From IMG/VR virus record IMGVR_UViG_3300035158_000899: a stretch of 64,000 bases of DNA; one strand, 5' to 3'. This DNA comes from a virus. Taxonomy: Duplodnaviria; Heunggongvirae; Uroviricota; Caudoviricetes. The notes below the pieces were generated by a model. That model worked only from the letters and a program-made list of their open reading frames with translations. It was not told where the DNA came from and made no database searches. Positions within the stretch are counted from its first letter, which is position 1; each line of letters starts with the position of its first letter. Below are positions 11,131-60,750 of the stretch, in pieces. The translations under genes and the position numbers were made by a program.

Positions 11131-11490
11131 ATGGGTAAACAAATTCATCTTGTTGGTTATAATGTTTTAATAGAGAGAGAAGAACTCGAAAAGACATCTT
11201 CAAGTGGTCTTGTTATTCCAGAAACTGCAGAGAGAAAAGAAAAGCTGGCTTGTGGGAAAGTTGTACAAAAAGGTCCTGGGTTTCTAATTCCGAATGTTAT
11301 AGGACAAGAAAGTGACTTAGATGTTGTCCTTGAAAGAGAAACAGTAAAGCATAAATTTATTCCGCTTGATGTACAAGAAAGAGATATTGTTTATTATAAC
11401 AAAGAAGCAGGTGAAGAAATTCGATTAAATGGGAAAGATTATGTAATTGTTCCTTACCCTGCAATAAGGTTGTTCATTAGAAGCATATGA
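11131..11490 (+). CDS. GroES/Cpn10 (T4 gp31-like) co-chaperonin
   Basis: 119 aa. 'LVGYNVLIEREELEKTSSSGLVIPETAERKEKLACGKVVQKGPG' matches the GroES core pattern (..vlv.....e.kT.sGiviP....ek...g.VvavG.G). Confidence 0.45.
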   Translation: MGKQIHLVGYNVLIEREELEKTSSSGLVIPETAERKEKLACGKVVQKGPGFLIPNVIGQESDLDVVLERETVKHKFIPLDVQERDIVYYNKEAGEEIRLNGKDYVIVPYPAIRLFIRSI

Positions 11491-11669
11491 AATCTAGTAT
11501 AGATAAAATAGGAAGTTTTTTAGCTTGGATGAATGCCGGCGGTCAAGTTAGTATGAAATATGGAAACCCAAAACAGGAAGAACGATTTAAAAAGGAATTA
11601 AGTGAAGCTCTTGAAGCATATCTTAGACTTGATGATGCTTTTAGAAAAATGTTTAAACCGAAGAGATAG
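11487..11669 (+). CDS. Small hypothetical protein, paralogue of 33423-33611
   Basis: Shares 'KIG(S/D)FLAWMNAGGQV(S/G)MKY.N' with the ORF at 33423. Confidence 0.5.
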   Translation: MKSSIDKIGSFLAWMNAGGQVSMKYGNPKQEERFKKELSEALEAYLRLDDAFRKMFKPKR

Positions 11670-12055
11670 AGGTCAAATGAAAACAACGGAAGCAGCAAAG
11701 TATCTTAAACAAGGTAAAACTTTAATAACTGGGGTGACTGTTAAAACTCTTTACCGTTTAGGCGAGGAGGGAGTTGAATATGGTCCTTGCATATCGTGTG
11801 CTAAAGAACAGCATTGGTACCCTTTTGGGAGTATAAAAGACTTTAAAGAGCAATTAAATGTTTTAGATTTTGAAGTTAAGGAGGAATGGAAATGAAAGAG
11901 AATAAAACTCCCGACTTGACTATAGCACCGGATACCCCGGCTTATTATACGTTATATGCTTATAAGTTTGATTTTGATTGTGCTAGAAATGCTCTTTTGT
12001 ATTTTATTGAAGAAAAAGGTTTGAGTAAGAAATGTGCAGAATGGCTTGATAAACA

Positions 12056-13771
12056 TTGGCCGAGAGAAGATTAATGGATTTAGCAAAACATGGAACCGTA
12101 TTAAGAGTACTCAAAGGGATCGCAGCCGGATTGAGCGCCAAGCACAATGTAACAGTGAGGTTTAGTAGAGAAGATGCTTGCGCAACAGATGGAAAAACAA
12201 TTGTTATCCCCTATCGTGATGAAACTGATCCTTTGAAGTATTTAGGATTCCTTGCTCATGAATCAGGACATATTATCTTTACTGATTTTAATGCCATTGT
12301 AGAGATGGTGGAAGGAACACAAGATAAAGTTGAGCATCCAGAGTTTCTTAAAAACATACATAATGCTTTAGAAGATATTTATATTGAAAGGGAGATTACA
12401 ACAGAATATGAGGGGTTTAAACATTTTCTCACTCAAATTGTAGAAGAAACAAATAGAGAAAAAGCGAAACATTTTGGTAAGATGGGAAAGACTAAGATGT
12501 TGCTCGATGTTATGTATTTAATGGGCAGAAAATATGATTACTCTATTTATCCAAAAGAGATTGTTAGTTACATAGAAACAAAGTTGAAACACATTGTTAA
12601 TAAAGTTGCAAATCAATGCAGCAATACAAGAGAAGTAATAGAATGCGCGAGAGAAGCTTATGAAATCATAATAAAGGATTTTGAAATACCTCAGAATATA
12701 GTGGTACAGATAGAAGGCGAGGATGGTAAAGAGGTAGCAAAGAATTTAAAGAATTTTTTAGAAAAGCTTAAGAAAGAAGCAGGAGATAAAGAAACACAAG
12801 AAAAGATAGATAGCATATGCGAAGAATGTCAAAAGATCATTGATCAAACAGCAGAAGAAAAAGAAATAGATAAAAATACAGAGATTCCGCCAATGTTCGA
12901 ACCTGTACCACGAGATCATAATGTTGATAAAGACCAAACAGCGGTAAGGCCTGATATTGGCGATAAACAAATGTTTGATGATTTAGAAAGTGGTGTGCAT
13001 AATGAGGTTAAATATATTCGAAATCAGTTAATTAGAATACTGTCTGATGTTCGCGCTACAAAATGGAAAGCAGAAGAAGAAACAGGGAGAAGATTAGGAA
13101 AACATTTGTATAAGATAGAAAAAGGTGATCTATCTATTTTTCGCAAAAAGATAGTTTCCACGAATCATGAATTACCAGAAATGGCATGGTATATCCTTAT
13201 TGACCATTCAGGTTCGATGGGGTCTTTTTATATACGTCAAAGTGGTAATTCAAAAAGCGCAGAAGCATGTAGAGCTGCAATAGCTTTTTCAGAATTAGCA
13301 GATAGGTTAGAATTACCATTTGCAATTACAGGATTTAATGAAGGTGGATTGTATTGTAGTACATTCGGTTATGATCGCAACGATGTACACCATATAATAT
13401 ACAAAACTTTTGATGAACCTTATTATAAGGTAAAAGTATCATTAACAGAGATCACAGGTAGTGGAAGTAATTTGGATAGTGTTAGTTTAAGATTTGCTTA
13501 CAACCAAATCAAACAAAGAAGAGAACCCATTAAGGTAATAATTATGATATGCGATGGTTATCCTTGCTGTCCGGAAGGTGAACTAGAAGGAATAATTGCT
13601 GAGATAGAAAGATCAAAGGATACAAATGTGGTAGGAGTAGGGATACAAACAGATGCAGTTAAGAATTTTTACAGAAGATATGTAGAAGTAAATCAAGTAG
13701 AAGAATTAGGAATGAATATTGTAAGGATATTAGCAGATGCGATATCTGATTTACAAAAAACTGTGAGGTGA
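12056..13771 (+). CDS. von Willebrand factor A (VWA) domain protein with MIDAS motif, CobT-like partner of the AAA+ ATPase
   Basis: 'LIDHSGSM' DxSxS MIDAS motif, followed by conserved T and D positions in a C-terminal alpha/beta domain. Large helical N-terminal region. Confidence 0.65.
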   Translation: MAERRLMDLAKHGTVLRVLKGIAAGLSAKHNVTVRFSREDACATDGKTIVIPYRDETDPLKYLGFLAHESGHIIFTDFNAIVEMVEGTQDKVEHPEFLKNIHNALEDIYIEREITTEYEGFKHFLTQIVEETNREKAKHFGKMGKTKMLLDVMYLMGRKYDYSIYPKEIVSYIETKLKHIVNKVANQCSNTREVIECAREAYEIIIKDFEIPQNIVVQIEGEDGKEVAKNLKNFLEKLKKEAGDKETQEKIDSICEECQKIIDQTAEEKEIDKNTEIPPMFEPVPRDHNVDKDQTAVRPDIGDKQMFDDLESGVHNEVKYIRNQLIRILSDVRATKWKAEEETGRRLGKHLYKIEKGDLSIFRKKIVSTNHELPEMAWYILIDHSGSMGSFYIRQSGNSKSAEACRAAIAFSELADRLELPFAITGFNEGGLYCSTFGYDRNDVHHIIYKTFDEPYYKVKVSLTEITGSGSNLDSVSLRFAYNQIKQRREPIKVIIMICDGYPCCPEGELEGIIAEIERSKDTNVVGVGIQTDAVKNFYRRYVEVNQVEELGMNIVRILADAISDLQKTVR

Positions 13772-17795: not shown

Positions 17796-18551
17796 ATGAA
17801 AATAACTTATTTAGGTACAGGTTCAGCTTTTTGTATGAACAATTTTCAAACAAATGCATTGATTGAAAATAACGGACAGAAATTACTTATCGATGCCGGA
17901 AGTGATATACGTTTTTCATTAGCGGAACAAAAGTTAACCGCTAATGATTTGGATGCGGTGTATATTAGTCACCAGCATGCAGATCATATAGGAGGAGTAG
18001 AATATATAGCCTTCGTTACTTATTTTATGCCGAATAAGGAGCCGATTACTTTATATGCGAATCAATTTTTGGTTAAAGACATGTGGATAGAAACGCTATG
18101 CGGCGGACTTAAAAGTATTCAAGGTAAATGTATGGGGTTAAGTGATTATTTTAAAGTCCAGCCAGTTGCATGTAATCAACCGTTTTGGTGGCAAAATATT
18201 GAATTTATACCTGTTCAAACAGTGCACGTAATGGACGGTTATAAGATAGTTAGTAGTTTTGGTCTTATGGTTAGGTATCATGGAGAAACTATATTTATGA
18301 CTACTGATACACAGTTTGCTCCAAGTCAGCTTTTAGATTTCTATAAACAAGCTACTTTGATATTTCATGATTGTGAAACAACGCCATTTGCGTCAGGCGT
18401 TCATGCACATTACAATCAACTTTCGACATTGGATGAACAAACAAAAGAAAAAATGTGGCTTACACATTATCAAGATGGCGAATTACCTGATGCAGAGGCA
18501 GATGGATTTAAAGGATTTGTAAAGAAAGGACAAGTATTTAAATTTGAATGA
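17796..18551 (+). CDS. Metallo-beta-lactamase-fold hydrolase
   Basis: 'HQHADHIGG' HxHxDH metal-binding motif, with downstream His and Asp residues. 251 aa. Confidence 0.6.
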   Translation: MKITYLGTGSAFCMNNFQTNALIENNGQKLLIDAGSDIRFSLAEQKLTANDLDAVYISHQHADHIGGVEYIAFVTYFMPNKEPITLYANQFLVKDMWIETLCGGLKSIQGKCMGLSDYFKVQPVACNQPFWWQNIEFIPVQTVHVMDGYKIVSSFGLMVRYHGETIFMTTDTQFAPSQLLDFYKQATLIFHDCETTPFASGVHAHYNQLSTLDEQTKEKMWLTHYQDGELPDAEADGFKGFVKKGQVFKFE

Positions 18552-25859: not shown

Positions 25860-26984
25860 ATGAGTGCACTTTTGAATTACAAGCACTATACTGACAAGTA
25901 CTTTTTAAGAACAAACGAGATCCTTAAGAGAGAAGGTTTAAACCCAATAGTTGGGATGAAAGTGTTTACAAGAGGGGAAGGATCGATTGTAAATCTTAAT
26001 GAAGCGGTAGAATTTGTAAAGGCGAATGCAAAAGGTGCATCGGTGTGGGTTACAAACAGACATACTTATAGAACGAAAGAACCTCTGATGATAATAAGGG
26101 GCCCAATACAAAGCTTTATTGAATTAGAAACGGTTTATTTGGGAATTTTATCTTATGAATTATCGAGAACAGCAGGCATATTGCCGCCGAATGCATACCA
26201 AATCGGCAGTAAGATGAGCAGACTTAAAAATATTTATGGTAAAAAGCCGATACTTTATTTTGGTGCAAGGCATTATCATTGGCAATTTGATAAAGGTATT
26301 GCAAAAGTTGCATTAAAAAACGGTGCAGTGCAAACTTCAACTGATATTGGTTCAGCTAATATTGGGAAGCAAGGGGTAGGCACAACGCCTCATGTTCTTA
26401 CTATTGTACTGGCACATAAGTATGGAAGAGAAAACGCTACACTAAAAACAGCAGAGTTGTTTGACAAACACATGGCAAAAGAGATACCAAAAGTAACTTT
26501 AGTAGATACATTCAATAAAGAAATAACGGATAGTCTTAAGGTAGCAGAATATTTTGGTGAAAGAAAAAATTCTTTAAGAATAGATACTTGTGGTGAGAAT
26601 GTTGGAGAAGATGGATCGTCTTATGATGGAGAAAAAGAAAAAGATCCTGGATTTAAAATAGGAACTGGTGTTACAATAGAATTGGTTGCAAACGTAAGAA
26701 AAGCTTTAATAGAGGCCGGTTATGGTGATAGTACTGACATTGTATTGTCAAGTGGCTTCGGAAACGAAGATAAGGCAAGAATATTTACGAAAGCTGATAA
26801 AGATTTTAAAGAAATGACAGGTTATGATTTATTTTCTTCTGTTGGAATAGGTGAAGTAAGTGAAGCAAGATTCTGTACAGCTGACATATTTGAAGTCGAA
26901 GGTGAGCCTTTTTCAAAGACCGGGCGCGAAATAAGTAAAGAAGAAATAGATATATGTTATGAAACAATGAGGAAGGTAGTTTGA
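25860..26984 (+). CDS. Nicotinate/nicotinamide phosphoribosyltransferase-family protein (PncB/NAPRTase-like)
   Basis: N-terminal 'YTDKYF', 'YFGARHYH' (F-G-x-R-R/H motif) and 'GTTPHVL' (GTxxH) resemble NAPRTase-family signatures. The position next to nadE and pncA supports the call. Confidence 0.45.
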   Translation: MSALLNYKHYTDKYFLRTNEILKREGLNPIVGMKVFTRGEGSIVNLNEAVEFVKANAKGASVWVTNRHTYRTKEPLMIIRGPIQSFIELETVYLGILSYELSRTAGILPPNAYQIGSKMSRLKNIYGKKPILYFGARHYHWQFDKGIAKVALKNGAVQTSTDIGSANIGKQGVGTTPHVLTIVLAHKYGRENATLKTAELFDKHMAKEIPKVTLVDTFNKEITDSLKVAEYFGERKNSLRIDTCGENVGEDGSSYDGEKEKDPGFKIGTGVTIELVANVRKALIEAGYGDSTDIVLSSGFGNEDKARIFTKADKDFKEMTGYDLFSSVGIGEVSEARFCTADIFEVEGEPFSKTGREISKEEIDICYETMRKVV

Positions 26985-27713: not shown

Positions 27714-28571
27714 ATGAAAAGGGGAAAAATGATTAAAGACTATGTAATTGCAGTTAAAAACATAAGAAATACAACTAAGAATTATATAACTAAGTACGAT
27801 ATCAAAGCTCTTGTTATAGGTTTATCAGGCGGAATTGATAGTACACTTTGTAGTGCTTTAGCTAAGCCTGTGTGTGATGAACTCAGTATTCCATTAGTTG
27901 GAAGGAGTCTTCCTATACAAACAAATAAGGTAGATGAAATAAAGAGAGCAAAGAAAGCAGGAGAGGTTTTTTGTACAGAATTTAAGGAAACAAATTTGGA
28001 AAATGAGTTTTATTCTTTTATGAGGAATACTATAGATATACATATAAAAATAAAAAGTGAATTAACAGAAGAAGATAAGATAAGAGAAGGAAACATTAAA
28101 GCTCGGCTTAGGATGATCAAGCTTTATGATGAAGCACAAAAAAGAAAAGGAATGGTACTTTCAACAGACAATTACACGGAATACCTATTGGGGTTCTGGA
28201 CACTCCACGGCGACGTCGGCGATTACGGCATGATCCAGAACCTTTGGAAAACAGAAGTGTATGGGATGGCAAATTATTTAACTGAACTTTACCATTCAAC
28301 AGATAGGCATAGCGAATTCGAAGTGTTATCTGCATGTATAGATGCTGTTCCAACTGATGGATTGGGTGTTTCAGAATCAGATTTAGATCAAATAGGCGCT
28401 AAGGATTACAAAGAGGTAGATGAAATTTTACAAATATGGCTTCGTTTTCAACGTAAAAATGCATTTAAAGATCATCCGGTTGTATTAAGACATGAGAGGA
28501 CCCATTGGAAAAGAAGGAATCCTTGTAATATAGGAAGAGAAACTATAGAAAAAATAAAAGGCGATAAGTAA
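27714..28571 (+). CDS. nadE: NH3-dependent NAD+ synthetase
   Basis: PP-loop 'LVIGLSGGIDSTLCSALA'; 'IKARLRMIKLYDEAQKRKGMVLSTDNYTEYLLGFWTLHGDVGDYGMIQNLWKTEVYGMANYL' matches the NadE core consensus. Confidence 0.8.
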   Translation: MKRGKMIKDYVIAVKNIRNTTKNYITKYDIKALVIGLSGGIDSTLCSALAKPVCDELSIPLVGRSLPIQTNKVDEIKRAKKAGEVFCTEFKETNLENEFYSFMRNTIDIHIKIKSELTEEDKIREGNIKARLRMIKLYDEAQKRKGMVLSTDNYTEYLLGFWTLHGDVGDYGMIQNLWKTEVYGMANYLTELYHSTDRHSEFEVLSACIDAVPTDGLGVSESDLDQIGAKDYKEVDEILQIWLRFQRKNAFKDHPVVLRHERTHWKRRNPCNIGRETIEKIKGDK

Positions 28572-51850: not shown

Positions 51851-54266
51851 TAATGAATTATTGTTGAATTATCAAAAGCGTTTAGAAGATTCTAGATATC
51901 GCACTAAGTTTTTTAAGGATTTAGCAGGCGATGATGAAACATCTTATTTTAAAACGCTTTTGGCTACAGAGCAAAATATAGGTGAACAATTAGTAAAGCG
52001 TGCTGATAGGTTGCAACGCTTAATAAAATTAGGTCAAGTACCCGAAGAAGAGCCTGGAGAAAAGCCCGAAGAAGAGTTAGGGGTTGAGGATGAAGAAGTA
52101 GAAGTAGAACAAATTGAAGAAGAGATAGTAGAAGAACCAGAAAAAAAAGAAATAACTGATGAGGAAATTATAGATTTTAATACAGGCGATAATGCTAAGG
52201 ATTGGCAAGACTATAAAAATTATGTTCAGAATGTGTTGAAAGTAGATTTGCGAAGTAAAACAGTAGCCCCTGATAGTCCTTATGCTCCAGCAATTAATTT
52301 AACAGGTTACACTGATAGTGAAGGTAAACGTCATCCTGGCTTGGTAGAACGTTTTGGTTTTGGTAGGGTTATGGAACCAATCATAATTAAGTACTCACCT
52401 TTAATTGGTGGAGTAGCAGGAAGAGCCATGGATGAAAGATATACATTGCAATTTCCAGGAACAAGCCCTGTAGAACGACAAGCCGAAATGTTTCAAATAC
52501 TTGCTACACGCATGCTAGAAAAGATGAAAACTTACGATCCCAAAAAAGGTACCGTGGGTGGCAGAATGTCAAAGAAAGTAGTAGAGCAAGAATTTTGGAA
52601 TGCTACGAGATTAAGAGAAAAAGCTACTAATTTATATAAAGATCTCGTGTGCCCTTTTTGCAGACAACCTAATACAGCTATAGGAGAAGAAACGAAGTTA
52701 CCAGAAGAATATATATTAGACAATCCTGATCATAACGTTTGGCCTCCTTTTAAGGGTAGTAAAGAGCCTGAAGAAAACAAACAGAAGTGGCTTGAGGTGC
52801 TTAAAGAAGAAGGTGAAATTGAAATGTTTTTGTGTCCAGTATGTGGAAATTTCTTTAGGGATGGAGATCAAGTCACAAAAACAACCGCTGTTGCCCCTGT
52901 TTCTTTAGAAGCACCAATACCAGGGCAAGAAGCAGAAGAAGCAGTTTTCGAAGAAGTAATAGAAGATCCGAAGACAAGAACACCAGGAGAAGCAAGTGAA
53001 GAATTGAAAAGACTTGTTTCTCGTACTGCTACTGAAAGGATTGCAAAAGATGTAAAAAGGATGTTGCTTTATAGAGCCGATGGTTGTAGATTCGATGAAA
53101 AAGAAAGCAAGCTCCGTGAGTTAAAAGGCAGATTGGGAAAAGCTGAGAAATACAACAAGGGTAGTGATTTTTATAAGGTTTTAAAAGGTTATAATATAAA
53201 TGAAGAATTAATTAACGAATTTCAATCTGGTTTAGTAGATGGTATAGCAGATGAAATGGCAGCACAACAGAGTGAGGAAGCGCTACAAGAAATAAGAAGT
53301 AGGAATGAAAAGTTTGTCAGTGATATGGTAAGTAGGATATTTGCGGAAGAAACAGATGCACAATTAACTCAAGATAAACTTGATAAAATTAAATTAGCTG
53401 CAAAAGCTTACATGGAAGGGTTTAAAGAGTTTCGTGAATTAATGAGAAGTAAGGGTAGATGTGCTAAAAACATCAATTGGCTTTACCGTAATCCTTGTTT
53501 TGGGTTATATAAAGATGAAGAAGGTAAGAGCAAAATATGCGAAGGCTATGAAGCAGTAGAATTTAGTAGTGCAGAAAGAATGAGAGCAAGAAAATATTTG
53601 CTAACAGCACAAGCTTTTATTATGGTTTCGGCAGCGGTTATAGAAAAGAAGAAAAGAGGTAAGCATTATAGAGATATAAAGAAATTAGCGAATGAAGCTA
53701 TTGCACAGCAAAATAAAGAACTTGAAGCAAGGAATATGGAACGTAGAAAATTAGGTAAAGAACCAATACCACTTATTGAACCTTGGACTGGCGGGTATGA
53801 TGTTGTAAGTGTACAGGGTGTTAAGAATGCTTTAGTGAAAACAATTATACCTCTCTTTAAGATGAAACCTGTGGAACAAATTGAAGGCATAACAGGTATG
53901 ACTTACGATGAAGCATTAACTATGTATTTAGAAGAACTTGAGGATTTAGCAACAGATAGAGGCACTGATATAAAAGAATTGGACTGGCAAGCATTTAAAG
54001 GTAACCCGGGAGCAATTAGAAAACATGTAGAGTTTTTTGGCAAGGAACAATCAAGTGAACGTTTGGGAAGAATGAGAGAGTTAGCCATATTAGCAAGAGA
54101 AGGTGACGAAGAAGCTATTCATACTCTTAGAAGATTGTTTGGGGATAATGAAAAAGTAAAAGAAATAATGAAACAAGAAACAGAAAGGGAGGGTGCGTGT
54201 CAGACATTTCTTACGAAATCCAGTCAGCGCCAACGGAGATCAAGATTGTTGAAGGTGCGAATGTAA
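51843..54266 (+). CDS. Large hypothetical protein (807 aa) with acidic N-terminal tract, a paralogous 'YDPKKGT' sigma-region-2-like segment and zinc ribbon
   Basis: 'ILATRMLEKMKTYDPKKGTVGGRMSKKVVEQEF' followed by 'CPFCRQ'/'CPVCGN' parallels the upstream ORF. EEPGEKPEEELGVEDEEVEVEQIEEEIVEEPE low-complexity region. Confidence 0.3.
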   Translation: MDSNELLLNYQKRLEDSRYRTKFFKDLAGDDETSYFKTLLATEQNIGEQLVKRADRLQRLIKLGQVPEEEPGEKPEEELGVEDEEVEVEQIEEEIVEEPEKKEITDEEIIDFNTGDNAKDWQDYKNYVQNVLKVDLRSKTVAPDSPYAPAINLTGYTDSEGKRHPGLVERFGFGRVMEPIIIKYSPLIGGVAGRAMDERYTLQFPGTSPVERQAEMFQILATRMLEKMKTYDPKKGTVGGRMSKKVVEQEFWNATRLREKATNLYKDLVCPFCRQPNTAIGEETKLPEEYILDNPDHNVWPPFKGSKEPEENKQKWLEVLKEEGEIEMFLCPVCGNFFRDGDQVTKTTAVAPVSLEAPIPGQEAEEAVFEEVIEDPKTRTPGEASEELKRLVSRTATERIAKDVKRMLLYRADGCRFDEKESKLRELKGRLGKAEKYNKGSDFYKVLKGYNINEELINEFQSGLVDGIADEMAAQQSEEALQEIRSRNEKFVSDMVSRIFAEETDAQLTQDKLDKIKLAAKAYMEGFKEFRELMRSKGRCAKNINWLYRNPCFGLYKDEEGKSKICEGYEAVEFSSAERMRARKYLLTAQAFIMVSAAVIEKKKRGKHYRDIKKLANEAIAQQNKELEARNMERRKLGKEPIPLIEPWTGGYDVVSVQGVKNALVKTIIPLFKMKPVEQIEGITGMTYDEALTMYLEELEDLATDRGTDIKELDWQAFKGNPGAIRKHVEFFGKEQSSERLGRMRELAILAREGDEEAIHTLRRLFGDNEKVKEIMKQETEREGACQTFLTKSSQRQRRSRLLKVRM

Positions 54267-55456
54267 TAAAGGAAAAGAAAGAGAAATATTGGGATTCTAT
54301 TAAAAAGGATATTGAATTACCAGGTTTCAGAAAAGGCCATGTCGATAGAAAAACATATGAAAATAAAGTAGGTTATTTTAATTTATACCATCCCATCGTA
54401 GATGATGTAGTCTTTAGTGCTCTCGAATCAATAAAAGATTTTAGAATTGTTTGTGTTTTAGAAAAGAAAGTTGTTCAATTTTTTGATGACATACCTCTCA
54501 TTGTTAAAGTTTTGGTAGATACAAGGCCAAATGTCAAAATAACAGGTAACTATAAAAATATTGAAATCGAAGTACCCAAAATAAAAGTTATCGATGAGGA
54601 AGTAGATCGTCGTATCAATTCTCTTGTTTATTCAAAGACTCCTGCCAAGCCAATAACTGATAGGCCCACCCAAAAAGGCGATTCCATTAAGATTGATTAC
54701 AAAGGGTTTATAGTCGAGGATAATGCTTGGAGACCATTAGCAGGTTACGAAGCTAAAAATGTGAATTTAGTTTTAGGCAACAATCGCTTAAGTATTATAC
54801 CAGATATTGAAGAGTCAATCGTTGGGATGAAGAAAGATGAGATAAAGACCATTGAGGGAACAATACAAGAAAAACGCGGTAAAGTCGAGGTATGTTTAAA
54901 AGAAATATCAATTAGAGAATTGCCGGAAATCAATGACGAATTAGCGAAGCAATATAAATTCACATCATTGGAAGATATGAAGAGTAAGACAAGAGATGAG
55001 TTAGCACAATTTAAAAAAGCACAAATAGAAGTTGACAAACAAGGAAAGATTATCGATGCGTTGATTAAAGATTGTGAATTTGATTCAATACCAAAGTCAA
55101 TGGTAAGAATGCAAATAGAATCTGCGCTGCAATCAGAATGTAAAAATTTCGGCATGGACGTGAAGAAATTTTTAGAGACAATGAAAATTACCAGGGCTGC
55201 TTATGAAGAAGACCGGTTTGAAGATGCACTACGGCTTGTTAAAGCAAGACTTGCATTAGAAGAATTAGCAGAAAGGGAAAAGATTGGTTGTACAGATGAG
55301 GAGATTGAAAAAGAAATGGGCGAAAATGCGAAGAAGGCCGGTGTTAAACTTGAAGAATACAAGAATAGAGTGAATAAAGATGGTATTGGTAATGATTTGA
55401 AGGTCGGTAAAGCGTTACTTTATTTGAAAGAAAGTGTGAGGTATAAGGAGGTTTAA
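54197..55456 (+). CDS. tig: Trigger factor (ribosome-associated chaperone / FKBP-type PPIase) homologue
   Basis: N-terminal ribosome-binding signature 'LPGFRKGHV' (GFRxGxxP), FKBP region 'VDYKGFIVEDNAW...LVLGNNRLSIIPDIEESIVGMKKDEIKTIEG', and 'IRELPEINDELAKQY' align with E. coli Tig over its full length. Confidence 0.75.
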   Translation: MSDISYEIQSAPTEIKIVEGANVIKEKKEKYWDSIKKDIELPGFRKGHVDRKTYENKVGYFNLYHPIVDDVVFSALESIKDFRIVCVLEKKVVQFFDDIPLIVKVLVDTRPNVKITGNYKNIEIEVPKIKVIDEEVDRRINSLVYSKTPAKPITDRPTQKGDSIKIDYKGFIVEDNAWRPLAGYEAKNVNLVLGNNRLSIIPDIEESIVGMKKDEIKTIEGTIQEKRGKVEVCLKEISIRELPEINDELAKQYKFTSLEDMKSKTRDELAQFKKAQIEVDKQGKIIDALIKDCEFDSIPKSMVRMQIESALQSECKNFGMDVKKFLETMKITRAAYEEDRFEDALRLVKARLALEELAEREKIGCTDEEIEKEMGENAKKAGVKLEEYKNRVNKDGIGNDLKVGKALLYLKESVRYKEV

Positions 55457-56473
55457 TTGATAAAGTTTGGGTCACATCCTTTTCCTGACTTTGACTCAAT
55501 TGTATCCACGTGGCTGTATAAAAGGTTTGTTATAAAAGATGAAGAATACGAATTTTTTATAACAGGCAATGATAAATTAAAAGACGAAGCAGTATTAATC
55601 GATATAGGATTAGGTGAATACGATCATCATCAGTATATAGGCGAATGTAGTAATTGTAACCATCCAATAGAAATACCACATAAAAACCAAATTTGCCCTC
55701 ACTGTAATGAAGTAAAATTAACAAACGCTAATATTGATTTAATCAGCGCCGCACATGTTATAGCAAAAAAACATAGTTTGGATTTTCTTGGTTGCGATAA
55801 TTTGGCAATACGAGCAAATCAAGTAGATAGTGTTATGGTTAATAATATGAAGCCGGGTGATTTGTTTTATGTTATTAGAGGTTTGAATGAAATTTATTCT
55901 CATGGATTTAAAAAAGTATATGAAATTGTATGGAAGATTTTAGATAAAATGCATGAGAAAGGTTATTTTGTTGACGACAAATATGAAGTTGATAACAAAG
56001 TACTGTCCGGACACGAGGACATAGAAGTTATAGAAAAAGCGATAGATACAGGTGCCGAAAAAGAAGCGCAAGTGAAAATTTTAGTAGAAAATTCGTATAA
56101 ATTCACGGCTTTGTTAGAAACAGAAAATGGTAAGAAAGTAAGTGTTCCTGCACTCGCAGCAGAAACAGATTTGAACATGAGTTATAGTTCTCATGGTAAA
56201 GATTTTGTTTTGTATGTTTATAAAAACCCAAGTAATGGCATAGCAGGCTATAACAGTAGAAATCCGGGCAAAGGTGACTTAGGCATACCAGAAGTTGATT
56301 TAACAAATATATACAATACTATTAAAACGATCGAACCAAATGAACGCGCCGAATGGTATTTACATTGGTCAAAGAGGTTACTGTTGTGTGGAAGCAAAAA
56401 AAGAGATTTTGGAAAAGAAAAAGCAACTGAATTATCTTTACAACAACTCATAGAATTGGTGAAGAAAAAATGA
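55457..56473 (+). CDS. DHH-family phosphoesterase (NrnA/GdpP-like) with inserted zinc ribbon
   Basis: 'FGSHPFPDFDSIVSTWL' (H..PD.D..S motifs I-II) and 'LIDIGLGEYDHHQ' (DHH motif III); 'CSNCNH...CPHCNE' ribbon insertion. Confidence 0.5.
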   Translation: MIKFGSHPFPDFDSIVSTWLYKRFVIKDEEYEFFITGNDKLKDEAVLIDIGLGEYDHHQYIGECSNCNHPIEIPHKNQICPHCNEVKLTNANIDLISAAHVIAKKHSLDFLGCDNLAIRANQVDSVMVNNMKPGDLFYVIRGLNEIYSHGFKKVYEIVWKILDKMHEKGYFVDDKYEVDNKVLSGHEDIEVIEKAIDTGAEKEAQVKILVENSYKFTALLETENGKKVSVPALAAETDLNMSYSSHGKDFVLYVYKNPSNGIAGYNSRNPGKGDLGIPEVDLTNIYNTIKTIEPNERAEWYLHWSKRLLLCGSKKRDFGKEKATELSLQQLIELVKKK

Positions 56474-56830
56474 AGTATTTAGTTTTAATTGCATTATTAT
56501 TTTTAAATTGTGGCTCTCGAATAAGTTATGCACCTTGTTATGAAAGAGATTGTAAAACTGCAATGGCAACGTTTAAAAATAGTGTGGGTATGCGTAAAAC
56601 AATTTCAGTGGATACTATTGTTGCCGATGATGGTTCAAGAGTTTTGAAGATAAAATACAAGGAATATTAATGAATTGCATAGACGACAAGCTTAAAAAGT
56701 ACAGCGTTGAAGATGTTAATTGGGATGCAATTAGCGAAAAAATCAATACAGAATTGGAAAAATACAGATGTGAACTTAATAAGAAGTTCGCAAAATCTCA
56801 TGCAACATTAGCTAAAATAATTTTGAATTC

Positions 56831-58171
56831 ATGAAAACGACAATGAATAAAAATACCTGTTATATTTTTGGAAGATGGCTGGGTGATGGTAGTAAAACAA
56901 CAAATGCATTAGAAATTGCGAGAAGTAATAATAATTATGAAAAAAAAAATATGGAACAAATAGCGGTTATGCTTAATACTACATATAAACATTGTAATAA
57001 TTATAGTACAAGATTTCATAGACAACAAAAATTAGTCAATCAATTTAAAATTCTATATAATGTTATAAGCGAGATTCACAATTTTTCTTTTTTAAAATTT
57101 TCAATAAATAGATATTCAATTATAGCAGGTTTTCTTGATTCTGACGGCAGCGTAGATATTCACACGCCAAATGAAACTGGAATAAGCAGTAAAAAAATAA
57201 ATATTGTATTTTATAATAATAATTCGCAAATTTTATATTTTATACAAAGATTGCTGCAGATAGACAACATAACATCAACATATAGTAAATCGTATAATTT
57301 AAAAACAAATGTGGGAACAGATAAATGCAACAGGTTATACATACACGGAAGCTTAGATAATTATTTTATAGCATATAAAATATTACCACATATGTTATGC
57401 AATTTTAAGAAAAAGAGATTACAACAATGGACTCGTGATTACGATCGTTTTTATCAAAAAAAGAAAATAAATATTACCGAAATTTTTCATAGTATAGAAG
57501 GTGAGGGACGCAGAATTGGAGAACCTATTACATTTATAAGAGTATACGGCTGCCCGCATAAATGTTCGTTTTGTGATACCAAATATTCTGTGTGTAAGAG
57601 CAGAAGTACGAGATCAAAACATAGCAGGGATTTAAAAATTGTAATCAATGATATTATTAAATTAGGTAACGTTCAAAATATCGAATTTACAGGAGGTTCC
57701 CCAGATTGGTTCCCAGCAAAAATTGGTTATCTATTGATATATTTTAAAGCACGGTATAACAGTAACATAACTATGCAAGTTAGTGGAGGCATTAAAACAG
57801 ATAAGAGCAATAGATTATTTAAATTGTCTACGTTAAACGCATTTGATTATAAGGACCCAAGGGAGAATATTCCATTCGTTATCGAACCTGAATTGATTCG
57901 TTCACAGGATGAAATTAAATTTTTAATAAAAGATAATTTTAGTTACAATTTTGTAAAAAAGAAGATCCAGGAATTGCAAGCTATTGGTATAAATTGTAAA
58001 ATGATAATAACAACTGTAACAAATAATGGCAACGATATTGTTACAGATCATTTAGAAAAATTGAAAAAATTAACAGAAAAAATATTAACAGATGCAAATT
58101 TTCCTAAAGAAAATGTTAAAATTGCCCCCAGGGAACACGTATTATTATGGGGAAATAAAAAAGGTGTATAG
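56831..58171 (+). CDS. queE: 7-carboxy-7-deazaguanine synthase QueE (radical SAM) carrying an in-frame N-terminal double-motif LAGLIDADG homing-endonuclease domain
   Basis: Residues about 215-446: 'EIFHSIEGEGRRIGEPITFIRVYGCPHKCSFCDTKYS' matches the QueE N-terminus with the Cx3Cx2C cluster. Residues 1-214: 'YIFGRWLGDGS' and 'IIAGFLDSDGSV' LAGLIDADG motifs about 90 aa apart in an extremely AT-rich, Asn/Lys-rich segment. Confidence 0.7.
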   Translation: MKTTMNKNTCYIFGRWLGDGSKTTNALEIARSNNNYEKKNMEQIAVMLNTTYKHCNNYSTRFHRQQKLVNQFKILYNVISEIHNFSFLKFSINRYSIIAGFLDSDGSVDIHTPNETGISSKKINIVFYNNNSQILYFIQRLLQIDNITSTYSKSYNLKTNVGTDKCNRLYIHGSLDNYFIAYKILPHMLCNFKKKRLQQWTRDYDRFYQKKKINITEIFHSIEGEGRRIGEPITFIRVYGCPHKCSFCDTKYSVCKSRSTRSKHSRDLKIVINDIIKLGNVQNIEFTGGSPDWFPAKIGYLLIYFKARYNSNITMQVSGGIKTDKSNRLFKLSTLNAFDYKDPRENIPFVIEPELIRSQDEIKFLIKDNFSYNFVKKKIQELQAIGINCKMIITTVTNNGNDIVTDHLEKLKKLTEKILTDANFPKENVKIAPREHVLLWGNKKGV

Positions 58172-58366
58172 CGTTGTTATTTTTAAACTAGCTTTTTAGA
58201 AGCTGCAGATGCAACAAAAGAGTATAATATGTTAGAGAAGATTCCTTTAATAATCGGCATAATAATAGGTTTACTTATTTTATCTTTACCACCTGTTGAA
58301 AGATTTTCGATTGAATTATTTGAGCAAATTAAAAAAGCAGCATTAAAAGCGAGATAATAAGGAGAT

Positions 58367-59050
58367 ATGATGAAATCAGTAGTGTGTCTTAGTGGCGGCA
58401 TGGACAGTGCAACCATGTTGTGGAGGGCAGCGACAGAAAATGGTGAACTGCACGTAATATCTTTTGATTACAATCAACGTCACAAAATAGAATTGGAGTA
58501 TGCTAAAAAATTATGCGGTAGAGTCAGGAAAGTAGTTGAGCATAAAATAATCAATATAGATATGTCTCAAATAGGTGGTAGCCCTTTAACAGATAAGAGT
58601 ATTGATGTACCAAAAGCTTCTGATAAACAACAGATTAAAACAGTTCAACCGTTTAGAAACACTTTATTCACAGTTCTTGCAGCAGCATATGCTGAAGTTA
58701 ACAGTATTGACACAATTTATCTTTCACCAGTACAGGAAGATTATTTGGCATATCGTGACTGTAGGAAAGAATTTTTTACAGCGTTAGAGCATACTTTAAG
58801 TTTGGGCAGTACATATCCAATTGATTTTCATATAAAGACGCCCTATATTTTTAAAACAAAAAAAGAAGTTTTAGAAGATGGGTTACGCATGGGTGTACCT
58901 TATGAACTTACTTATACTTGTTATGAAGGCGACCCGCAAGGGTTTTGTGGTGAATGTGATGCCTGTAAAGAGCGTATAGATGCTTTTAAACAGATTAGCC
59001 AAAAAGATCCTGCTAAGTATTTGAGGGAGATAGAATGGGAAGATCAATGA
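58367..59050 (+). CDS. queC: 7-cyano-7-deazaguanine (preQ0) synthase QueC
   Basis: 'SVVCLSGGMDSATMLW' PP-loop, 'ISFDYNQRHKIELEYAKKL', and C-terminal Zn site 'CGECDACKERIDAF'. Confidence 0.85.
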   Translation: MMKSVVCLSGGMDSATMLWRAATENGELHVISFDYNQRHKIELEYAKKLCGRVRKVVEHKIINIDMSQIGGSPLTDKSIDVPKASDKQQIKTVQPFRNTLFTVLAAAYAEVNSIDTIYLSPVQEDYLAYRDCRKEFFTALEHTLSLGSTYPIDFHIKTPYIFKTKKEVLEDGLRMGVPYELTYTCYEGDPQGFCGECDACKERIDAFKQISQKDPAKYLREIEWEDQ

Positions 59051-59429
59051 TATTTAAGAATACAATCACGAGTCATTCGCCAAATGCTCCTGCATTGACA
59101 CTAACAAGACGAAGCGTAATAGATCTTGGTGAAAGTTATATAAAGATAACTTGCAGCCGCGGCAGAGTTTATATTTTTTCAAAGGAACGAAAAATACCTC
59201 TTCGGGATTTGATTTGCCCGTGCGGTAGGTATATTGTAAAACATGAGCGATTTTGAGGAAAGAATCCTAAAAGCAATTGATGGCAAAAGGGGTAAGGAAA
59301 GAGAAAAAATTATTCATAGCGAATTGAAATTGTTAGTTAAGGCCGGCCTTGATGACCTCAAAAAGCGCATAAAAAACCGCGCTAAAACAGATTTTCTTGT
59401 TAATTTGCTTCGAAAAAATAAATAGAACC

Positions 59430-60750
59430 TCCGCATTTCTATTAATAGTTTGTTTTTTAACAATCTATTAATAAATATATATAATAAAAATAGATAACGC
59501 TATTATTGATTGATAAAGGTATATTGTGCAGAGAGTAGAACGTCATATAGTTTTAAACAATAGGAATATAGAAAAGCTGTGTACCCTTTCTAAAAACCTT
59601 TATAATGTGGGTAATTATAACATCAGGCAGGAGTTTATAAACAATGGTAATTGGTTGAGATATCAACAATTAGATAAATTACTTAAGGAAACTAAAGATT
59701 ATAAAGCGCTTTCTGCACAAGTAGCTCAACAAGTATTAAGGCTTCTGGATAAAAATTGGATATCATTTTTTGAAGCAAATAAGAGATATAATAGGGATTC
59801 AAAAAAATTTAGAAGCAGACCTAAGTTGCCAAGGTATAAAAATAAAAATACAGGGAAAAATATGGTTGTCTTTACTAAACAAGATGCTAGACTAAAAAAT
59901 GGATTTATTTGTTTCCCAAAAAAAGTTAACCTTGAACCTTTAAAAACAAAAGTAAATAATATTTGTCAAGTTAGAATTGTGCCACAAGCAGTTTGTTATG
60001 TTATTGAAGTTGTTTACAATAAGGAGGCCAAAAATGTAAAATTACAACCGAACACTTATTTGAGTATTGATCTAGGTGTCAATAATTTTGCTACATGTGT
60101 TAACAACATAGGTTTAAAACCTTTTGTTGTAAATGGTAAGATATTAAAATCTATTAATCAATATTTTAATAAGAAAAAAGCTAGGCTAATGTCTTATGTA
60201 AAAGATAAGGGTACTTCTAATAAGGTTGACAAATTGATACATAAACGAAATTGCAAAGTACAAGATTATCTCCATAAGACTTCGAGGTTTATAGTTAATT
60301 ATTGTATTGCGTATAAAATAGGTGTTATTATTGTTGGTAAAAATAAAGATTGGAAGCAAGAAATTGATATGGGAAAAAAGAACAATCAAAATTTTGTTTC
60401 AATACCTTTTGACACTTTAGTAAAACAAATACGGTATAAGGCTGAAGAAGCAGGAATTAAGATAGCTGTTAGTGAAGAATCTTATACTTCTAAATGCAGT
60501 TTTTTAGATTTTGAAAAGGTCAAAAAACAAGTTGAATATTTAGGTAAAAGAATTAAGAGAGGGTTATTTAGGTCAGCGGAAGGTATTTTGATAAATGCAG
60601 ATGTTAATTCTGCTTATAATATTTTAAAAAAAGTAGTTCCAAATGCATTTGCAAATGGAATAGAGGGTGTAGGGTTACATCCAATTGTAATACAATTACA
60701 ATAAAAGATAACCTTAATAATAGTATATTTATCGACAAGGACTTAGCGAT
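59430..60750 (+). mobile_element. IS200/IS605-family insertion sequence of the TnpB-only (IS1341-like) type
   Basis: Contains only a TnpB ORF. The flanking AT-rich ends carry palindromic 'tctattaata(g)' motifs on the left (x2) and 'ttaataatag' on the right. Exact boundaries are uncertain. Confidence 0.6.
59526..60704 (+). CDS. tnpB: IS605 OrfB / TnpB RuvC-like RNA-guided nuclease family protein
   Basis: N-terminal 'NLYNVGNYNIRQEF' helix-turn-helix region, RuvC-I 'LSIDLGVNNFATCV', C-terminal 'NADVNSAYNILKKV' (RuvC-III). The usual CxxC...CxxC zinc finger appears degenerate (a single Cys). Confidence 0.85.
   Translation: MQRVERHIVLNNRNIEKLCTLSKNLYNVGNYNIRQEFINNGNWLRYQQLDKLLKETKDYKALSAQVAQQVLRLLDKNWISFFEANKRYNRDSKKFRSRPKLPRYKNKNTGKNMVVFTKQDARLKNGFICFPKKVNLEPLKTKVNNICQVRIVPQAVCYVIEVVYNKEAKNVKLQPNTYLSIDLGVNNFATCVNNIGLKPFVVNGKILKSINQYFNKKKARLMSYVKDKGTSNKVDKLIHKRNCKVQDYLHKTSRFIVNYCIAYKIGVIIVGKNKDWKQEIDMGKKNNQNFVSIPFDTLVKQIRYKAEEAGIKIAVSEESYTSKCSFLDFEKVKKQVEYLGKRIKRGLFRSAEGILINADVNSAYNILKKVVPNAFANGIEGVGLHPIVIQLQ

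What the first reader, a model, noticed from the sequence alone, without database searches (positions are those of the whole stretch)
56831..58171. LAGLIDADG homing-endonuclease domain fused in frame to the N-terminus of QueE
The QueE radical-SAM core (EIFHSIEGEGRRIGEPITFIRVYGCPHKCSFCDTKY) starts about 215 codons into the ORF. Codons 1-214 form an extremely AT-rich (over 75% AT) Asn/Lys-rich segment carrying two LAGLIDADG-type motifs about 90 residues apart: YIFGRWLGDGS and IIAGFLDSDGSV. That is the architecture of a monomeric double-motif homing endonuclease.

There is no ATG/GTG/TTG near the native QueE start, so QueE would have to be made as a fusion. The segment is not a canonical intein, because there is no upstream extein: the ORF start overlaps the stop of an unrelated 54-aa ORF (ATGA). 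It also does not look like an intron ORF.

Two alternatives follow. It may be a recent homing-endonuclease invasion that fused to queE; the A10 run at 56940-56949 is a slippage-prone site that could toggle expression. Or it may be a domesticated DNA-binding domain attached to a deazaguanine-pathway enzyme. Either would be unusual.
Basis: seen in the sequence. Interest (0 to 1): 0.7.

Follow-up and report, generated by a model that had tools for sequence, protein, structure and literature searches.

The report
Old LAGLIDADG nuclease–QueE fusion protein
A phage gene encodes one protein that joins a DNA-cutting "homing endonuclease" domain to QueE, an enzyme for 7-deazaguanine synthesis; the join is not a recent accident but an old, conserved design found in at least 23 uncultured phages, and its purpose is unknown.

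Summary

The "recent invasion" reading is wrong. At least 22 other metagenomic proteins of 426-508 aa share the architecture at 26-50% identity. The two halves co-diverge (Mantel p<0.0002). Every close relative of this LAGLIDADG domain among 1.84 billion representatives is itself fused to QueE. None of five DNA-checked fusions has a conserved internal start. No Hint domain or intron RNA is present.

Both catalytic Asp residues (D19, D105) are invariant in all 23 fusions, as conserved as the QueE iron-sulfur cysteines. The nuclease centre therefore appears to be under selection, unlike in WhiA or maturases.

The A10 run is consistent with chance.

A sister clade of 11 QueEs lacks the domain. 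A related phage shows a recent parallel: a different LAGLIDADG gene split a PRTase-FolE gene and stayed fused to FolE.

Best reading: an anciently captured homing endonuclease, translated only as a fusion with QueE. Cleavage activity and biological role are untested. New variant of a known kind; moderate interest.

The parts
56831..58171 (+). Single ORF of 446 aa (including stop) encoding the LAGLIDADG-QueE fusion protein
   Evidence: An identical protein, P0001, is on a 117-kb JGI contig.
56831..57394 (+). N-terminal monomeric (double-motif) LAGLIDADG nuclease domain, residues 1-188
56861..56893 (+). LAGLIDADG motif 1 (YIFGRWLGDGS, residues 11-21), with W16, D19 and G20 invariant in the family
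57119..57154 (+). LAGLIDADG motif 2 (IIAGFLDSDGSV, residues 97-108), with G100, D105 and G106 invariant; N129 downstream is also invariant
   Evidence: The motif aligns with the I-CreI GDG motif.
57395..57466 (+). Linker helix (residues 189-212; pattern KKxR...W/F-I..Y/F-D..Y), conserved in all fusions and joining the nuclease fold to the first QueE strand. It starts with the Lys cluster K191-K193.
   Evidence: AlphaFold helix 191-209; equivalent helix 188-205 in P0020; alignment.
57467..58168 (+). QueE-like radical-SAM domain, residues 213-446. It is the only QueE candidate in the window.
57551..57574 (+). CxxxCxxC iron-sulfur cluster motif (C241, C245, C248), invariant in the family
56670..56834 (+). 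Upstream 54-aa ORF whose TGA overlaps the fusion ATG (ATGA). This suggests translational coupling. The ORF has no homologue in related loci.
56940..56949 (+). A10 run inside the N-domain (codons E-K-K-N). Judged to be a chance product of AT-rich, Lys-rich coding sequence.
58367..59050 (+). QueC (preQ0 synthase), the next enzyme of the same pathway. It provides the context that identifies the fusion as the pathway's QueE.
   Evidence: Pfam QueC E=2e-59 and PHROG 1550.

Best explanation
The gene encodes one bifunctional polypeptide: a compact I-DmoI/PI-PfuI-type LAGLIDADG nuclease domain, a conserved linker helix, and the phage's only QueE.

**How it arose and persists (inferred).**
- A LAGLIDADG homing-endonuclease gene landed long ago at the 5' end of queE in an ancestor of a group of AT-rich T4-like aquatic phages.
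- It took over the gene's translation start. Since then it has been inherited with queE as a single unit.
- Because QueE can only be translated through the nuclease ORF, frameshifts, stop codons and imprecise deletions in the nuclease part are lethal to QueE expression. This locks the element in.
- The invariance of both metal-binding Asp residues and of N129, which fusion-enforced ORF integrity does not explain, indicates the nuclease centre itself is still selected. The domain therefore most likely still cleaves DNA.
- The most likely use is to cut related genomes that carry a nuclease-less queE (homing or marker exclusion in co-infections).

**Shown here:** the architecture, its age and conservation, co-divergence of the two halves, absence of intein, intron or internal start, and retention of catalytic residues.

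**Inferred:** the origin by HEG insertion, translation only as a fusion, nuclease activity, and the target.
For: **Domain identities:**

**Family size and conservation.**
- 23 fusion proteins of 426-508 aa, at 26-50% identity to the window protein.
- D19 and D105 are invariant in the 18-sequence alignment and present in P0214 and P0216-P0218 and in L091.
- This is the same level of conservation as QueE C241, C245 and C248.
- Variants at 90% identity or more have 0-3 conservative changes in the N-domain and no disruptions.

**Co-inheritance of the two halves.**
- Pairwise identities of the two halves correlate (r=0.82; means 34% versus 48%).
- The domain trees are congruent, Mantel p<0.0002.

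**No free-standing source.** In a profile search of 1.84 billion representatives, the 15 best hits whose match spans the whole N-domain (E from 1e-81 to 4e-10) are all 426-508 aa LAGLIDADG plus radical-SAM proteins (five were in the query alignment, the other ten confirmed by Pfam). The hits interleaved with them match only part of the domain, so no free-standing close relative was found.

**Translation only as a fusion.**
- In the five fusion genes with DNA in hand, in-frame ATG/GTG/TTG codons upstream of the QueE core sit at different offsets and none has a purine-rich leader.
- There is no start codon between codons 189 and 240 in the window.
- There is one QueE per window or locus.

**Pathway context.** The fusion sits with QueC here, and with QueD, FolE2, QueC and QueF in relatives.

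**Fold consistency.** pTM is 0.86 and 0.88 for two members that share only 28% identity, with the same linker helix.

**A recent analogue of the proposed origin.** In L003, a LAGLIDADG gene from a different lineage is inserted into a PRTase-FolE gene.
- The FolE half is 81-82% identical to uninterrupted relatives.
- A duplicated 'EDNIRRIL' stretch lies on both sides of the insert.
- The nuclease remains fused in frame to FolE.

**queE 5' flank as a landing site.** Another nuclease-like gene (MTES_1575) abuts the nuclease-less queE in L005.
Against: - No cleavage, target site or mobility has been shown.
- Co-divergence of the halves, and the absence of any decayed copy or free-standing relative, is not what the classical gain-decay-loss homing cycle predicts. 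It fits domestication at least as well.
- The predicted beta-sheet (DNA-contact) surface is poorly conserved across the family.
- Whether the nuclease-less sister clade reflects loss or the ancestral state is unresolved.
- No near-identical genome pair differing only by the domain is available.
- Non-canonical initiation or proteolytic release of QueE cannot be excluded from sequence.
Confidence: 0.55

Rival explanations
1. Domesticated nuclease tied to DNA hypermodification. The LAGLIDADG domain no longer homes. Instead it serves the phage by cutting DNA that lacks 7-deazaguanine (host DNA or unmodified competitor phage), while the phage's own modified DNA is spared. Fusion to QueE guarantees that the nuclease is never made without the protecting pathway, which is a restriction-modification-like coupling. 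T4 EndoII, a GIY-YIG relative of homing enzymes that attacks cytosine-containing host DNA, would be the analogy (own knowledge).
For: - The fusion is retained long-term, with an invariant catalytic centre and no decayed copies.
- No free-standing relatives exist.
- High pTM in two distant members suggests a fixed two-domain body.
- A second pathway enzyme (FolE) carries a LAGLIDADG domain in L003.
- 7-deazaguanine in a recognition site blocks a restriction enzyme (PMC10516641, citing EcoRV work).
Against: - LAGLIDADG enzymes normally recognise long, specific sites (own knowledge), which makes them poor bulk nucleases.
- The FolE fusion is a recent singleton from another LAGLIDADG lineage and looks like ordinary HEG insertion.
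- No DpdA DNA transglycosylase was identified in the window ORFs scanned or in the relatives' flanks, so DNA modification in this phage is itself unproven.
- A sister clade does without the domain.
Confidence: 0.18
2. Nuclease-dead structural passenger. The domain is a fossil homing endonuclease, kept only because QueE translation must pass through it or because it helps QueE fold or assemble. It has no DNA cleavage.
For: - ORF integrity is enforced by the fusion itself, since there is no conserved internal start.
- The N-domain evolves faster than QueE (34% versus 48% mean identity).
- The DNA-facing strands are variable.
- No Lys equivalent to I-CreI K98 is conserved in the N-terminal half.
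Against: - Both LAGLIDADG Asp residues and N129 are invariant in all members across 26-50% identity.
- Known non-cleaving LAGLIDADG proteins (WhiA, several maturases) have lost these acids (own knowledge).
- K193 at the I-CreI K98-like position is nearly invariant.
Confidence: 0.15
3. Two proteins from one ORF. QueE is released from the fusion, either by internal initiation (for example at M188, giving 259 aa, the size of the nuclease-less QueEs) or by proteolysis in the linker. The nuclease and QueE would then act separately.
For: - M188 exists in the window, and a start there would give a product of the same length as P0009.
- Nuclease-less relatives carry a leader before the QueE core (about 25-35 aa in most, 6 aa in P0009).
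Against: - M188 is not conserved.
- Start-like codons sit at different offsets in the five genes checked, and none has a purine-rich leader.
- No protease or intein signature is present.
Confidence: 0.07
4. One reading: a recent homing-endonuclease invasion of queE in this phage, with expression toggled by slippage in the A10 run. A related possibility is an assembly or frameshift artefact that joins two genes.
For: - GC is lower in the N-domain (25%) than in the window (34%).
- The A10 run is the longest homopolymer in the window.
Against: - The same architecture occurs in 22 independent sequences down to 26% identity, with co-diverging halves.
- The A10 run is expected in about 8% of codon shuffles and is absent from homologues.
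- The N-domain GC lies 0.6-5.5 points below the QueE half in the four homologous genes checked, so the lower GC is a family trait and not a fresh-import signal.
Confidence: 0.02

Closest known systems
Compact monomeric LAGLIDADG endonucleases of the I-DmoI / I-Tsp061I type, and the endonuclease domains of inteins PI-PfuI and PI-SceI
   Different: Those enzymes are encoded inside an intron or are flanked by Hint splicing domains and removed from the host product. Here there is no intron RNA and no Hint domain. The nuclease stays covalently attached to the host enzyme's N-terminus.
Free-standing homing endonuclease insertions that break or remodel phage genes: mobE splitting nrdA in Aeromonas phage Aeh1 (PMC3045599), and 'fractured genes' with split inteins (PMC2677866)
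   Same: A mobile nuclease gene lands inside or at the edge of a conserved phage metabolic gene, and the host function survives without RNA or protein splicing. The L003 PRTase | LAGLIDADG-FolE arrangement is of this kind, with duplicated flank sequence.
   Different: In those cases the nuclease is a separate ORF between the gene pieces. Here it is translated in frame with the downstream enzyme, and in the QueE case nothing upstream is left of the host gene. The arrangement is also old and conserved, not sporadic.
Mitochondrial endonuclease ORFs fused in frame to host genes (Allomyces macrogynus atp6 C-terminal insertion, as summarised in PMC4019555; intron ORFs in frame with the upstream exon)
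   Same: The homing endonuclease coding sequence is joined in frame to a host protein-coding gene.
   Different: Those fusions are at the 3' end or within introns, are sporadic, and the endonuclease is thought to be processed or to bring a replacement gene end. Here the fusion is N-terminal, occurs in phages, and is conserved across a whole protein family.
[not shown]
   Same: A LAGLIDADG scaffold is retained long-term in a host protein.
   Different: WhiA and maturases have lost the catalytic acids, and WhiA adds an HTH domain (own knowledge). Here both acids are invariant and the partner is a radical-SAM metabolic enzyme.
Phage preQ0 / 7-deazaguanine pathway QueE (PMC10516641; B. subtilis QueE structure 5tgs/5th5)
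   Different: Described QueEs begin a few residues before the E-I-F motif. This subfamily carries a 210-aa nuclease domain plus linker, or a shorter leader of 6-47 aa in its nuclease-less branch. It scores below NCBIfam equivalog cut-offs.

Membership tests
LAGLIDADG homing endonuclease (monomeric, double-motif) | Two LAGLIDADG helices in one chain and the alpha-beta-beta-alpha-beta-beta-alpha x2 fold | tested here: met
   [not shown]
LAGLIDADG homing endonuclease (monomeric, double-motif) | Metal-binding acidic residue at the end of each motif | tested here: met
   D19 and D105 are invariant in 18 aligned fusions and present in 5 further members. They align with the I-CreI GDG Asp.
LAGLIDADG homing endonuclease (monomeric, double-motif) | Site-specific double-strand cleavage of a long target | not testable with these tools
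   Needs purified protein and substrates.
LAGLIDADG homing endonuclease (monomeric, double-motif) | Mobility: sporadic presence or absence among close relatives, with phylogeny discordant with the host gene | tested here: not met
   The two domain trees are congruent (Mantel p<0.0002). No free-standing close relatives exist. The only absence is a whole sister clade. No near-identical genome pair is available for a direct test.
Intein | Hint splicing domain flanking the endonuclease, an N-extein, and a C-terminal His-Asn followed by Cys/Ser/Thr | tested here: not met
   No Hint or Intein_splicing hit at E<=1. Motif 1 starts at residue 11. The junction residues (YQKKK-INITE) carry no conserved HN+nucleophile in the fusions aligned. 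The whole N-part is accounted for by the LAGLIDADG fold.
Group I/II intron-encoded endonuclease | Ribozyme structure around the ORF and a host gene interrupted at the RNA level | tested here: not met
   No Rfam match at E<=1 in 55000-60000. The reading frame is continuous from nuclease into QueE.
QueE (7-carboxy-7-deazaguanine synthase) | Radical-SAM CxxxCxxC cluster and QueE fold | tested here: met
   [not shown]
QueE (7-carboxy-7-deazaguanine synthase) | Score above curated NCBIfam equivalog cut-off | tested here: not met
   The best hits are four QueE models with end-to-end coverage, but at 81-84 bits against cut-offs of 206-300. This is a divergent subfamily; the same holds for the nuclease-less P0009.
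QueE (7-carboxy-7-deazaguanine synthase) | Pathway context: sole QueE candidate next to other preQ0 genes | tested here: met
   QueC lies 196 nt downstream. QueD, QueC, FolE2 and QueF surround the homologues. There is one QueE-profile hit per window or locus. QueD and FolE were not found within this 64-kb window.
QueE (7-carboxy-7-deazaguanine synthase) | Conversion of CPH4 to CDG | not testable with these tools
   Needs an enzyme assay or complementation of a queE mutant.
Domesticated nuclease-dead LAGLIDADG (WhiA-like / maturase-like) | Loss of catalytic acidic residues, with the scaffold retained | tested here: not met
   The acids are invariant. No HTH partner domain is present.

The most novel reading that the evidence does not exclude
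The nuclease domain is a self/non-self weapon physically coupled to the DNA-hypermodification pathway. It would cut guanine-containing target sites in host or rival-phage DNA, while the phage's own 7-deazaguanine-substituted DNA is immune. Fusion to QueE makes nuclease synthesis impossible without the protective pathway. This would be a phage-borne, restriction-modification-like unit built from a homing endonuclease and a base-biosynthesis enzyme.
Probability: 0.12. Interest if true: 0.85.

Novelty: new variant of a known kind. Interest (0 to 1): 0.55.

Why it matters
Homing endonucleases are normally neutralised by introns or inteins, sit as separate genes, and cycle through gain, decay and loss. 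This case differs on each point. A LAGLIDADG nuclease has stayed covalently joined to a metabolic enzyme while that enzyme diverged by roughly half its residues. Its catalytic centre is intact and no splicing device is present.

- **If the nuclease is still selfish**, this is a lock-in strategy for a mobile element: it becomes the only translational entry to a useful gene.
- **If the nuclease is domesticated**, it links a DNA-cutting activity to the pathway that makes 7-deazaguanine. That would be directly relevant to how hypermodified phages discriminate self from non-self.

Either way, the family offers compact natural LAGLIDADG scaffolds of about 190 aa with a built-in fusion partner. The literature found in my searches on phage 7-deazaguanine pathways does not mention it.

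Tried and rejected
1. **Close cultured relatives.** tblastn of the full protein against 50,697 phage records hit only the QueE half at under 35% identity. The N-domain alone had no match.
2. **Syntenic nuclease-less sister genome.** The window's upstream genes have no homologue in the related loci. An IMG/VR scan with the 338-aa upstream protein found nothing. The window protein's own contig could not be retrieved by exact look-up.
3. **IMG/VR scan with the full-length alignment.** It was swamped by generic QueE matches. L074 proved to be a false partial match.
4. **P0215 (268 aa).** It first looked like a nuclease-less sister of fusion P0029, with a leader homologous to the linker helix. It starts 17 nt from a contig end and its frame is open to the edge, so it is a truncated fusion.
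5. **Rooting the QueE tree.** Canonical QueEs were used as outgroups to decide gain versus loss of the domain. The NJ topology put the outgroups between the two fusion groups, so this is unresolved.
6. **Leader versus linker helix.** I could not show that the leader of the nuclease-less clade is homologous to the linker helix. The similarity is too weak to call.
7. **Recent-timescale selection.** Clusters at 90% identity or more gave only 0-3 differences, which is too few.
8. **HEG+ versus HEG- DNA comparison** of the conserved E-I-F-x-S-I-E-G-E-G coding stretch. No discriminating pattern was found.
9. **Structure libraries.** AFDB50 was unavailable. BFVD held no protein with both domains.
10. 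**Promoter and terminator scan.** Uninformative in this AT-rich DNA.
11. **Rejected outright:** intein, intron, internal-start and assembly-artefact readings.
Full report
**1.

The window contains a single + strand ORF, 56831..58171, of 446 codons. Its ATG overlaps the TGA of a 54-aa upstream ORF (ATGA). The QueE signature EIFHSIEGEG starts at residue 217.

- Pfam assigns LAGLIDADG_3 (E=6e-7) and LAGLIDADG_1 (E=5e-5) to the N-part, and Radical_SAM/Fer4_12 to the C-part.
- PHROGs assigns residues 210-446 to the QueE-like family 2076.
- All top NCBIfam hits are QueE models covered end to end, although below the equivalog cut-offs.

Composition and start codons also match the description:
- The N-domain DNA is 25% GC, against 30% for the QueE half and 34% for the window.
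- No ATG/GTG/TTG lies between codons 189 and 240.

**2. It is not an intein, an intron ORF, an artefact or two genes.**

- No Rfam family, including group I and II introns, matches 55000-60000 at E<=1.
- The only canonical in-frame start near the junction is M188. It is not conserved. In the five genes for which I have DNA, start-like codons lie at different offsets and none has a purine-rich leader.
- The same architecture in many independent assemblies excludes a sequencing artefact.

**3. It is old and conserved, not a recent invasion.**

A search of 5.8 billion proteins found eight full-length homologues (426-481 aa, 28-50% identity over 98-100% of the query). It also found eleven QueE-only relatives of 259-309 aa (alignment).

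A profile of the N-domain alone was then searched against 1.84 billion representatives.
- The 15 best hits whose match spans the whole N-domain (E from 1e-81 to 4e-10) are all proteins of 426-508 aa.
- Five of them were already in the query alignment. All ten of the others tested carry LAGLIDADG_3 plus Radical_SAM/Fer4_12.
- The few hits interleaved with them (P0026, P0030-P0034) match only part of the domain or belong to much larger or differently built proteins.
- So every close relative of this particular LAGLIDADG domain is fused to QueE, and no free-standing close relative exists in that library.

A QueE-profile search added four more fusions, and IMG/VR added one (L091 5965-7266, 433 aa). 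The total is 23.

The homologues lie in T4-like metagenomic phage contigs carrying gp32, UvsW, a baseplate protein and NrdD. They sit next to QueD, QueC, FolE2 and QueF. The window itself is T4-like, with gp46/47-like and clamp-loader genes. In both the window and these loci the fusion is the only QueE candidate.

**4. The two halves evolve together, and the nuclease centre is conserved.**

- Pairwise identities of the N- and C-halves correlate (r=0.82). The N-half evolves somewhat faster (34% versus 48% mean identity).
- Across 18 fusions the domain trees recover the same groups, and a Mantel test gives p<0.0002.
- In that alignment the invariant N-domain positions are W16, D19, G20, G100, D105, G106 and N129. 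This is the same level of conservation as the QueE cluster cysteines C241, C245 and C248.
- The five additional members also keep GDG and SDG.
- D19 and D105 are the motif-terminal acids that bind the catalytic metals in this family (established knowledge). D105 aligns with the I-CreI GDG Asp.
- K193, at the position of I-CreI K98, is invariant in the nine closest fusions. The equivalent residue, K190 of P0020, is conserved in at least 90% of a 15-member alignment.

Conservation is concentrated on the two LAGLIDADG helices and the active centre. The predicted beta-strands that would face DNA are variable.

The fusion explains part of this pattern but not all of it. It enforces an open reading frame through the nuclease, because otherwise no QueE is made. 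It does not enforce particular side chains. Invariance of the catalytic acids therefore points to selection on catalysis or metal binding itself. This contrasts with WhiA and maturases, which keep the fold but lose the acids (own knowledge).

A second AlphaFold model, for the distant member P0020 (28% identical), has the same layout and linker helix, with pTM 0.88. This suggests a fixed two-domain body. That is an inference, since no inter-domain error map is available.

**5. Presence and absence of the domain.**

Eleven QueEs form a sister clade to the window-like fusions (bootstrap 74-77%). They lack the nuclease and start with a leader of 6 to about 47 residues before the QueE core, about 25-35 in most. 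Canonical QueEs start directly at that core.

I could not decide whether this clade lost the domain or represents the state before insertion:
- Midpoint rooting with the distant fusion P0020 outside favours loss.
- A tree with canonical QueE outgroups is unresolved.
- An apparent second short form, P0215, is a fusion cut off by a contig end.

**6. A recent analogue shows how such fusions arise.**

In L003, the contig of fusion P0006, the FolE gene (11022-12257) also begins with a double-motif LAGLIDADG domain. That domain belongs to a different lineage: only the motifs align with the QueE-fused domain, and it has free-standing relatives of 229-272 aa.

- Its FolE half is 81-82% identical to uninterrupted PRTase-FolE proteins.
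- The ORF just upstream (10544-11032) encodes the PRTase part plus a diverged duplicate of the FolE N-terminal stretch 'EDNIRRIL...'.

So a LAGLIDADG gene inserted into a PRTase-FolE gene, split it, duplicated the flank and stayed in frame with the downstream half. This resembles known gene-fragmenting insertions such as mobE in nrdA (PMC3045599) and fractured genes (PMC2677866), except that here the nuclease is fused to the host protein.

Three further observations show that these phages and their deazaguanine genes are frequent nuclease targets:
- A different nuclease-like gene (MTES_1575) abuts the nuclease-less queE in L005.
- FolE carries a true intein elsewhere (P0190).
- The dUTPase of L001 and the DNA polymerase of L008 carry intein elements.

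**7. Most likely mechanism.**

*Shown:* one ORF; two intact domains; no splicing device; an ancient, co-inherited, conserved architecture; a catalytic centre that has been retained.

*Inferred:* a homing endonuclease gene captured the 5' end of queE and became its only translational entry. Translation is coupled to the upstream ORF through the ATGA overlap here, and uses its own Shine-Dalgarno-like sites in L001, L003 and L007. This arrangement protects the element from decay and deletion. The nuclease is probably still active, most plausibly against related genomes with a nuclease-less queE.

I give this composite about 0.55. The main rivals are:
- a domesticated nuclease functionally tied to 7-deazaguanine modification (0.18);
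- a nuclease-dead passenger (0.15);
- release of a separate QueE (0.07);
- the recent-invasion/A10-toggle idea (0.02).

Evidence against classical ongoing homing is real. It comprises co-divergence of the halves, the absence of decayed copies, the absence of free-standing relatives, and a variable DNA-contact surface.

**8. The A10 run.**

It is the only homopolymer of 9 or more bases in the window. However, an independent-base model predicts about 2 such runs in the window and 0.1 in the N-domain. Codon shuffles of the N-domain give an A10 run in 8% of trials. The four homologous genes have no run at that place. I treat it as a by-product of AAA-rich coding sequence.

**9. Comparison with what is known, and novelty.**

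Full-text searches gave nothing describing this fusion:
- LAGLIDADG + QueE;
- 7-deazaguanine + homing endonuclease + phage;
- 7-deazaguanine + QueE + DpdA + phage + fusion.

The main survey of phage 7-deazaguanine pathways lists FolE, QueD, QueE, QueC and the Gat-QueC fusion, but no nuclease-fused QueE (PMC10516641). One member is in UniProt with only an automatic 'DOD-type homing endonuclease domain-containing protein' name.

The parts are familiar and in-frame endonuclease fusions are known in mitochondria (PMC4019555). What is new is a conserved family in which a catalytically intact LAGLIDADG domain is permanently N-terminally fused to a radical-SAM enzyme of a DNA-modification pathway. 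I rate it a new variant of a known kind, with interest 0.55.

Noticed in passing
L003 10544-12257 (contig Ga0073583_1091108; same arrangement in L004): A LAGLIDADG gene of a different lineage has split a PRTase-FolE fusion gene. The upstream ORF keeps PRTase plus a diverged duplicate of the FolE N-terminal stretch. The downstream ORF is LAGLIDADG fused in frame to FolE, and its FolE half is 81-82% identical to uninterrupted relatives P0167 and P0168.
   Followed up: yes
window 59526-60704 (+): A TnpB / IS605 OrfB-type gene (OrfB_IS605 plus Cas12f1-like TNB domain; PHROG 506 'transposase') lies immediately downstream of QueC in a lytic-looking T4-like phage. No TnpA or flanking ends were looked for.
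   Followed up: no
window 54197-55456 (+): A phage-encoded trigger factor with all three domains (Trigger_N, FKBP_C, Trigger_C), which is an unusual chaperone gene for a phage.
   Followed up: no
window 17796-18551 (+): A homologue of the anti-Pycsar nuclease Apyc1 (Pfam PF23023, E=6e-29, above the cut-off), which is a counter-defence gene.
   Followed up: no
window 25860-26984 and 27714-28571 (+): NAD-related auxiliary genes: a QRPTase_N-like phosphoribosyltransferase and an NAD synthase.
   Followed up: no
L001 9471-11228: The dUTPase gene is in pieces: an N-part ORF, a 327-aa MTES_1575-like nuclease ORF, then an ORF with an intein splicing region plus the dUTPase C-part. This resembles the 'fractured gene' arrangement of PMC2677866.
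   Followed up: partly
L005 6206-8008: A 600-aa DUF7487 + MTES_1575 nuclease-like gene overlaps the start of the nuclease-less queE (P0009). It shares a segment with the nuclease ORF inside the L001 dUTPase gene. This suggests the queE 5' flank is a landing site for several nuclease families.
   Followed up: partly
L010 3987-5948 and 6817-7548: Genes called on this contig (which carries the nuclease-less QueE P0016) contain several in-frame stops under table 11. This points to stop-codon recoding in that phage.
   Followed up: no
window 1-64000: No QueD, FolE/FolE2 or QueF homologue was found in the window by tblastn with the relatives' proteins. No DpdA-like (TGT) domain appeared among the ORFs scanned. 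The rest of the pathway must lie elsewhere on the 117-kb contig or be supplied by the host.
   Followed up: partly
P0005 residues 1-40 (L001 8001-8120) and P0024 residues 1-60: Some fusion proteins carry an extra Cys-rich N-terminal extension (CKECG...H..KC) ahead of LAGLIDADG motif 1. It may be a small zinc-finger-like DNA-binding add-on.
   Followed up: no
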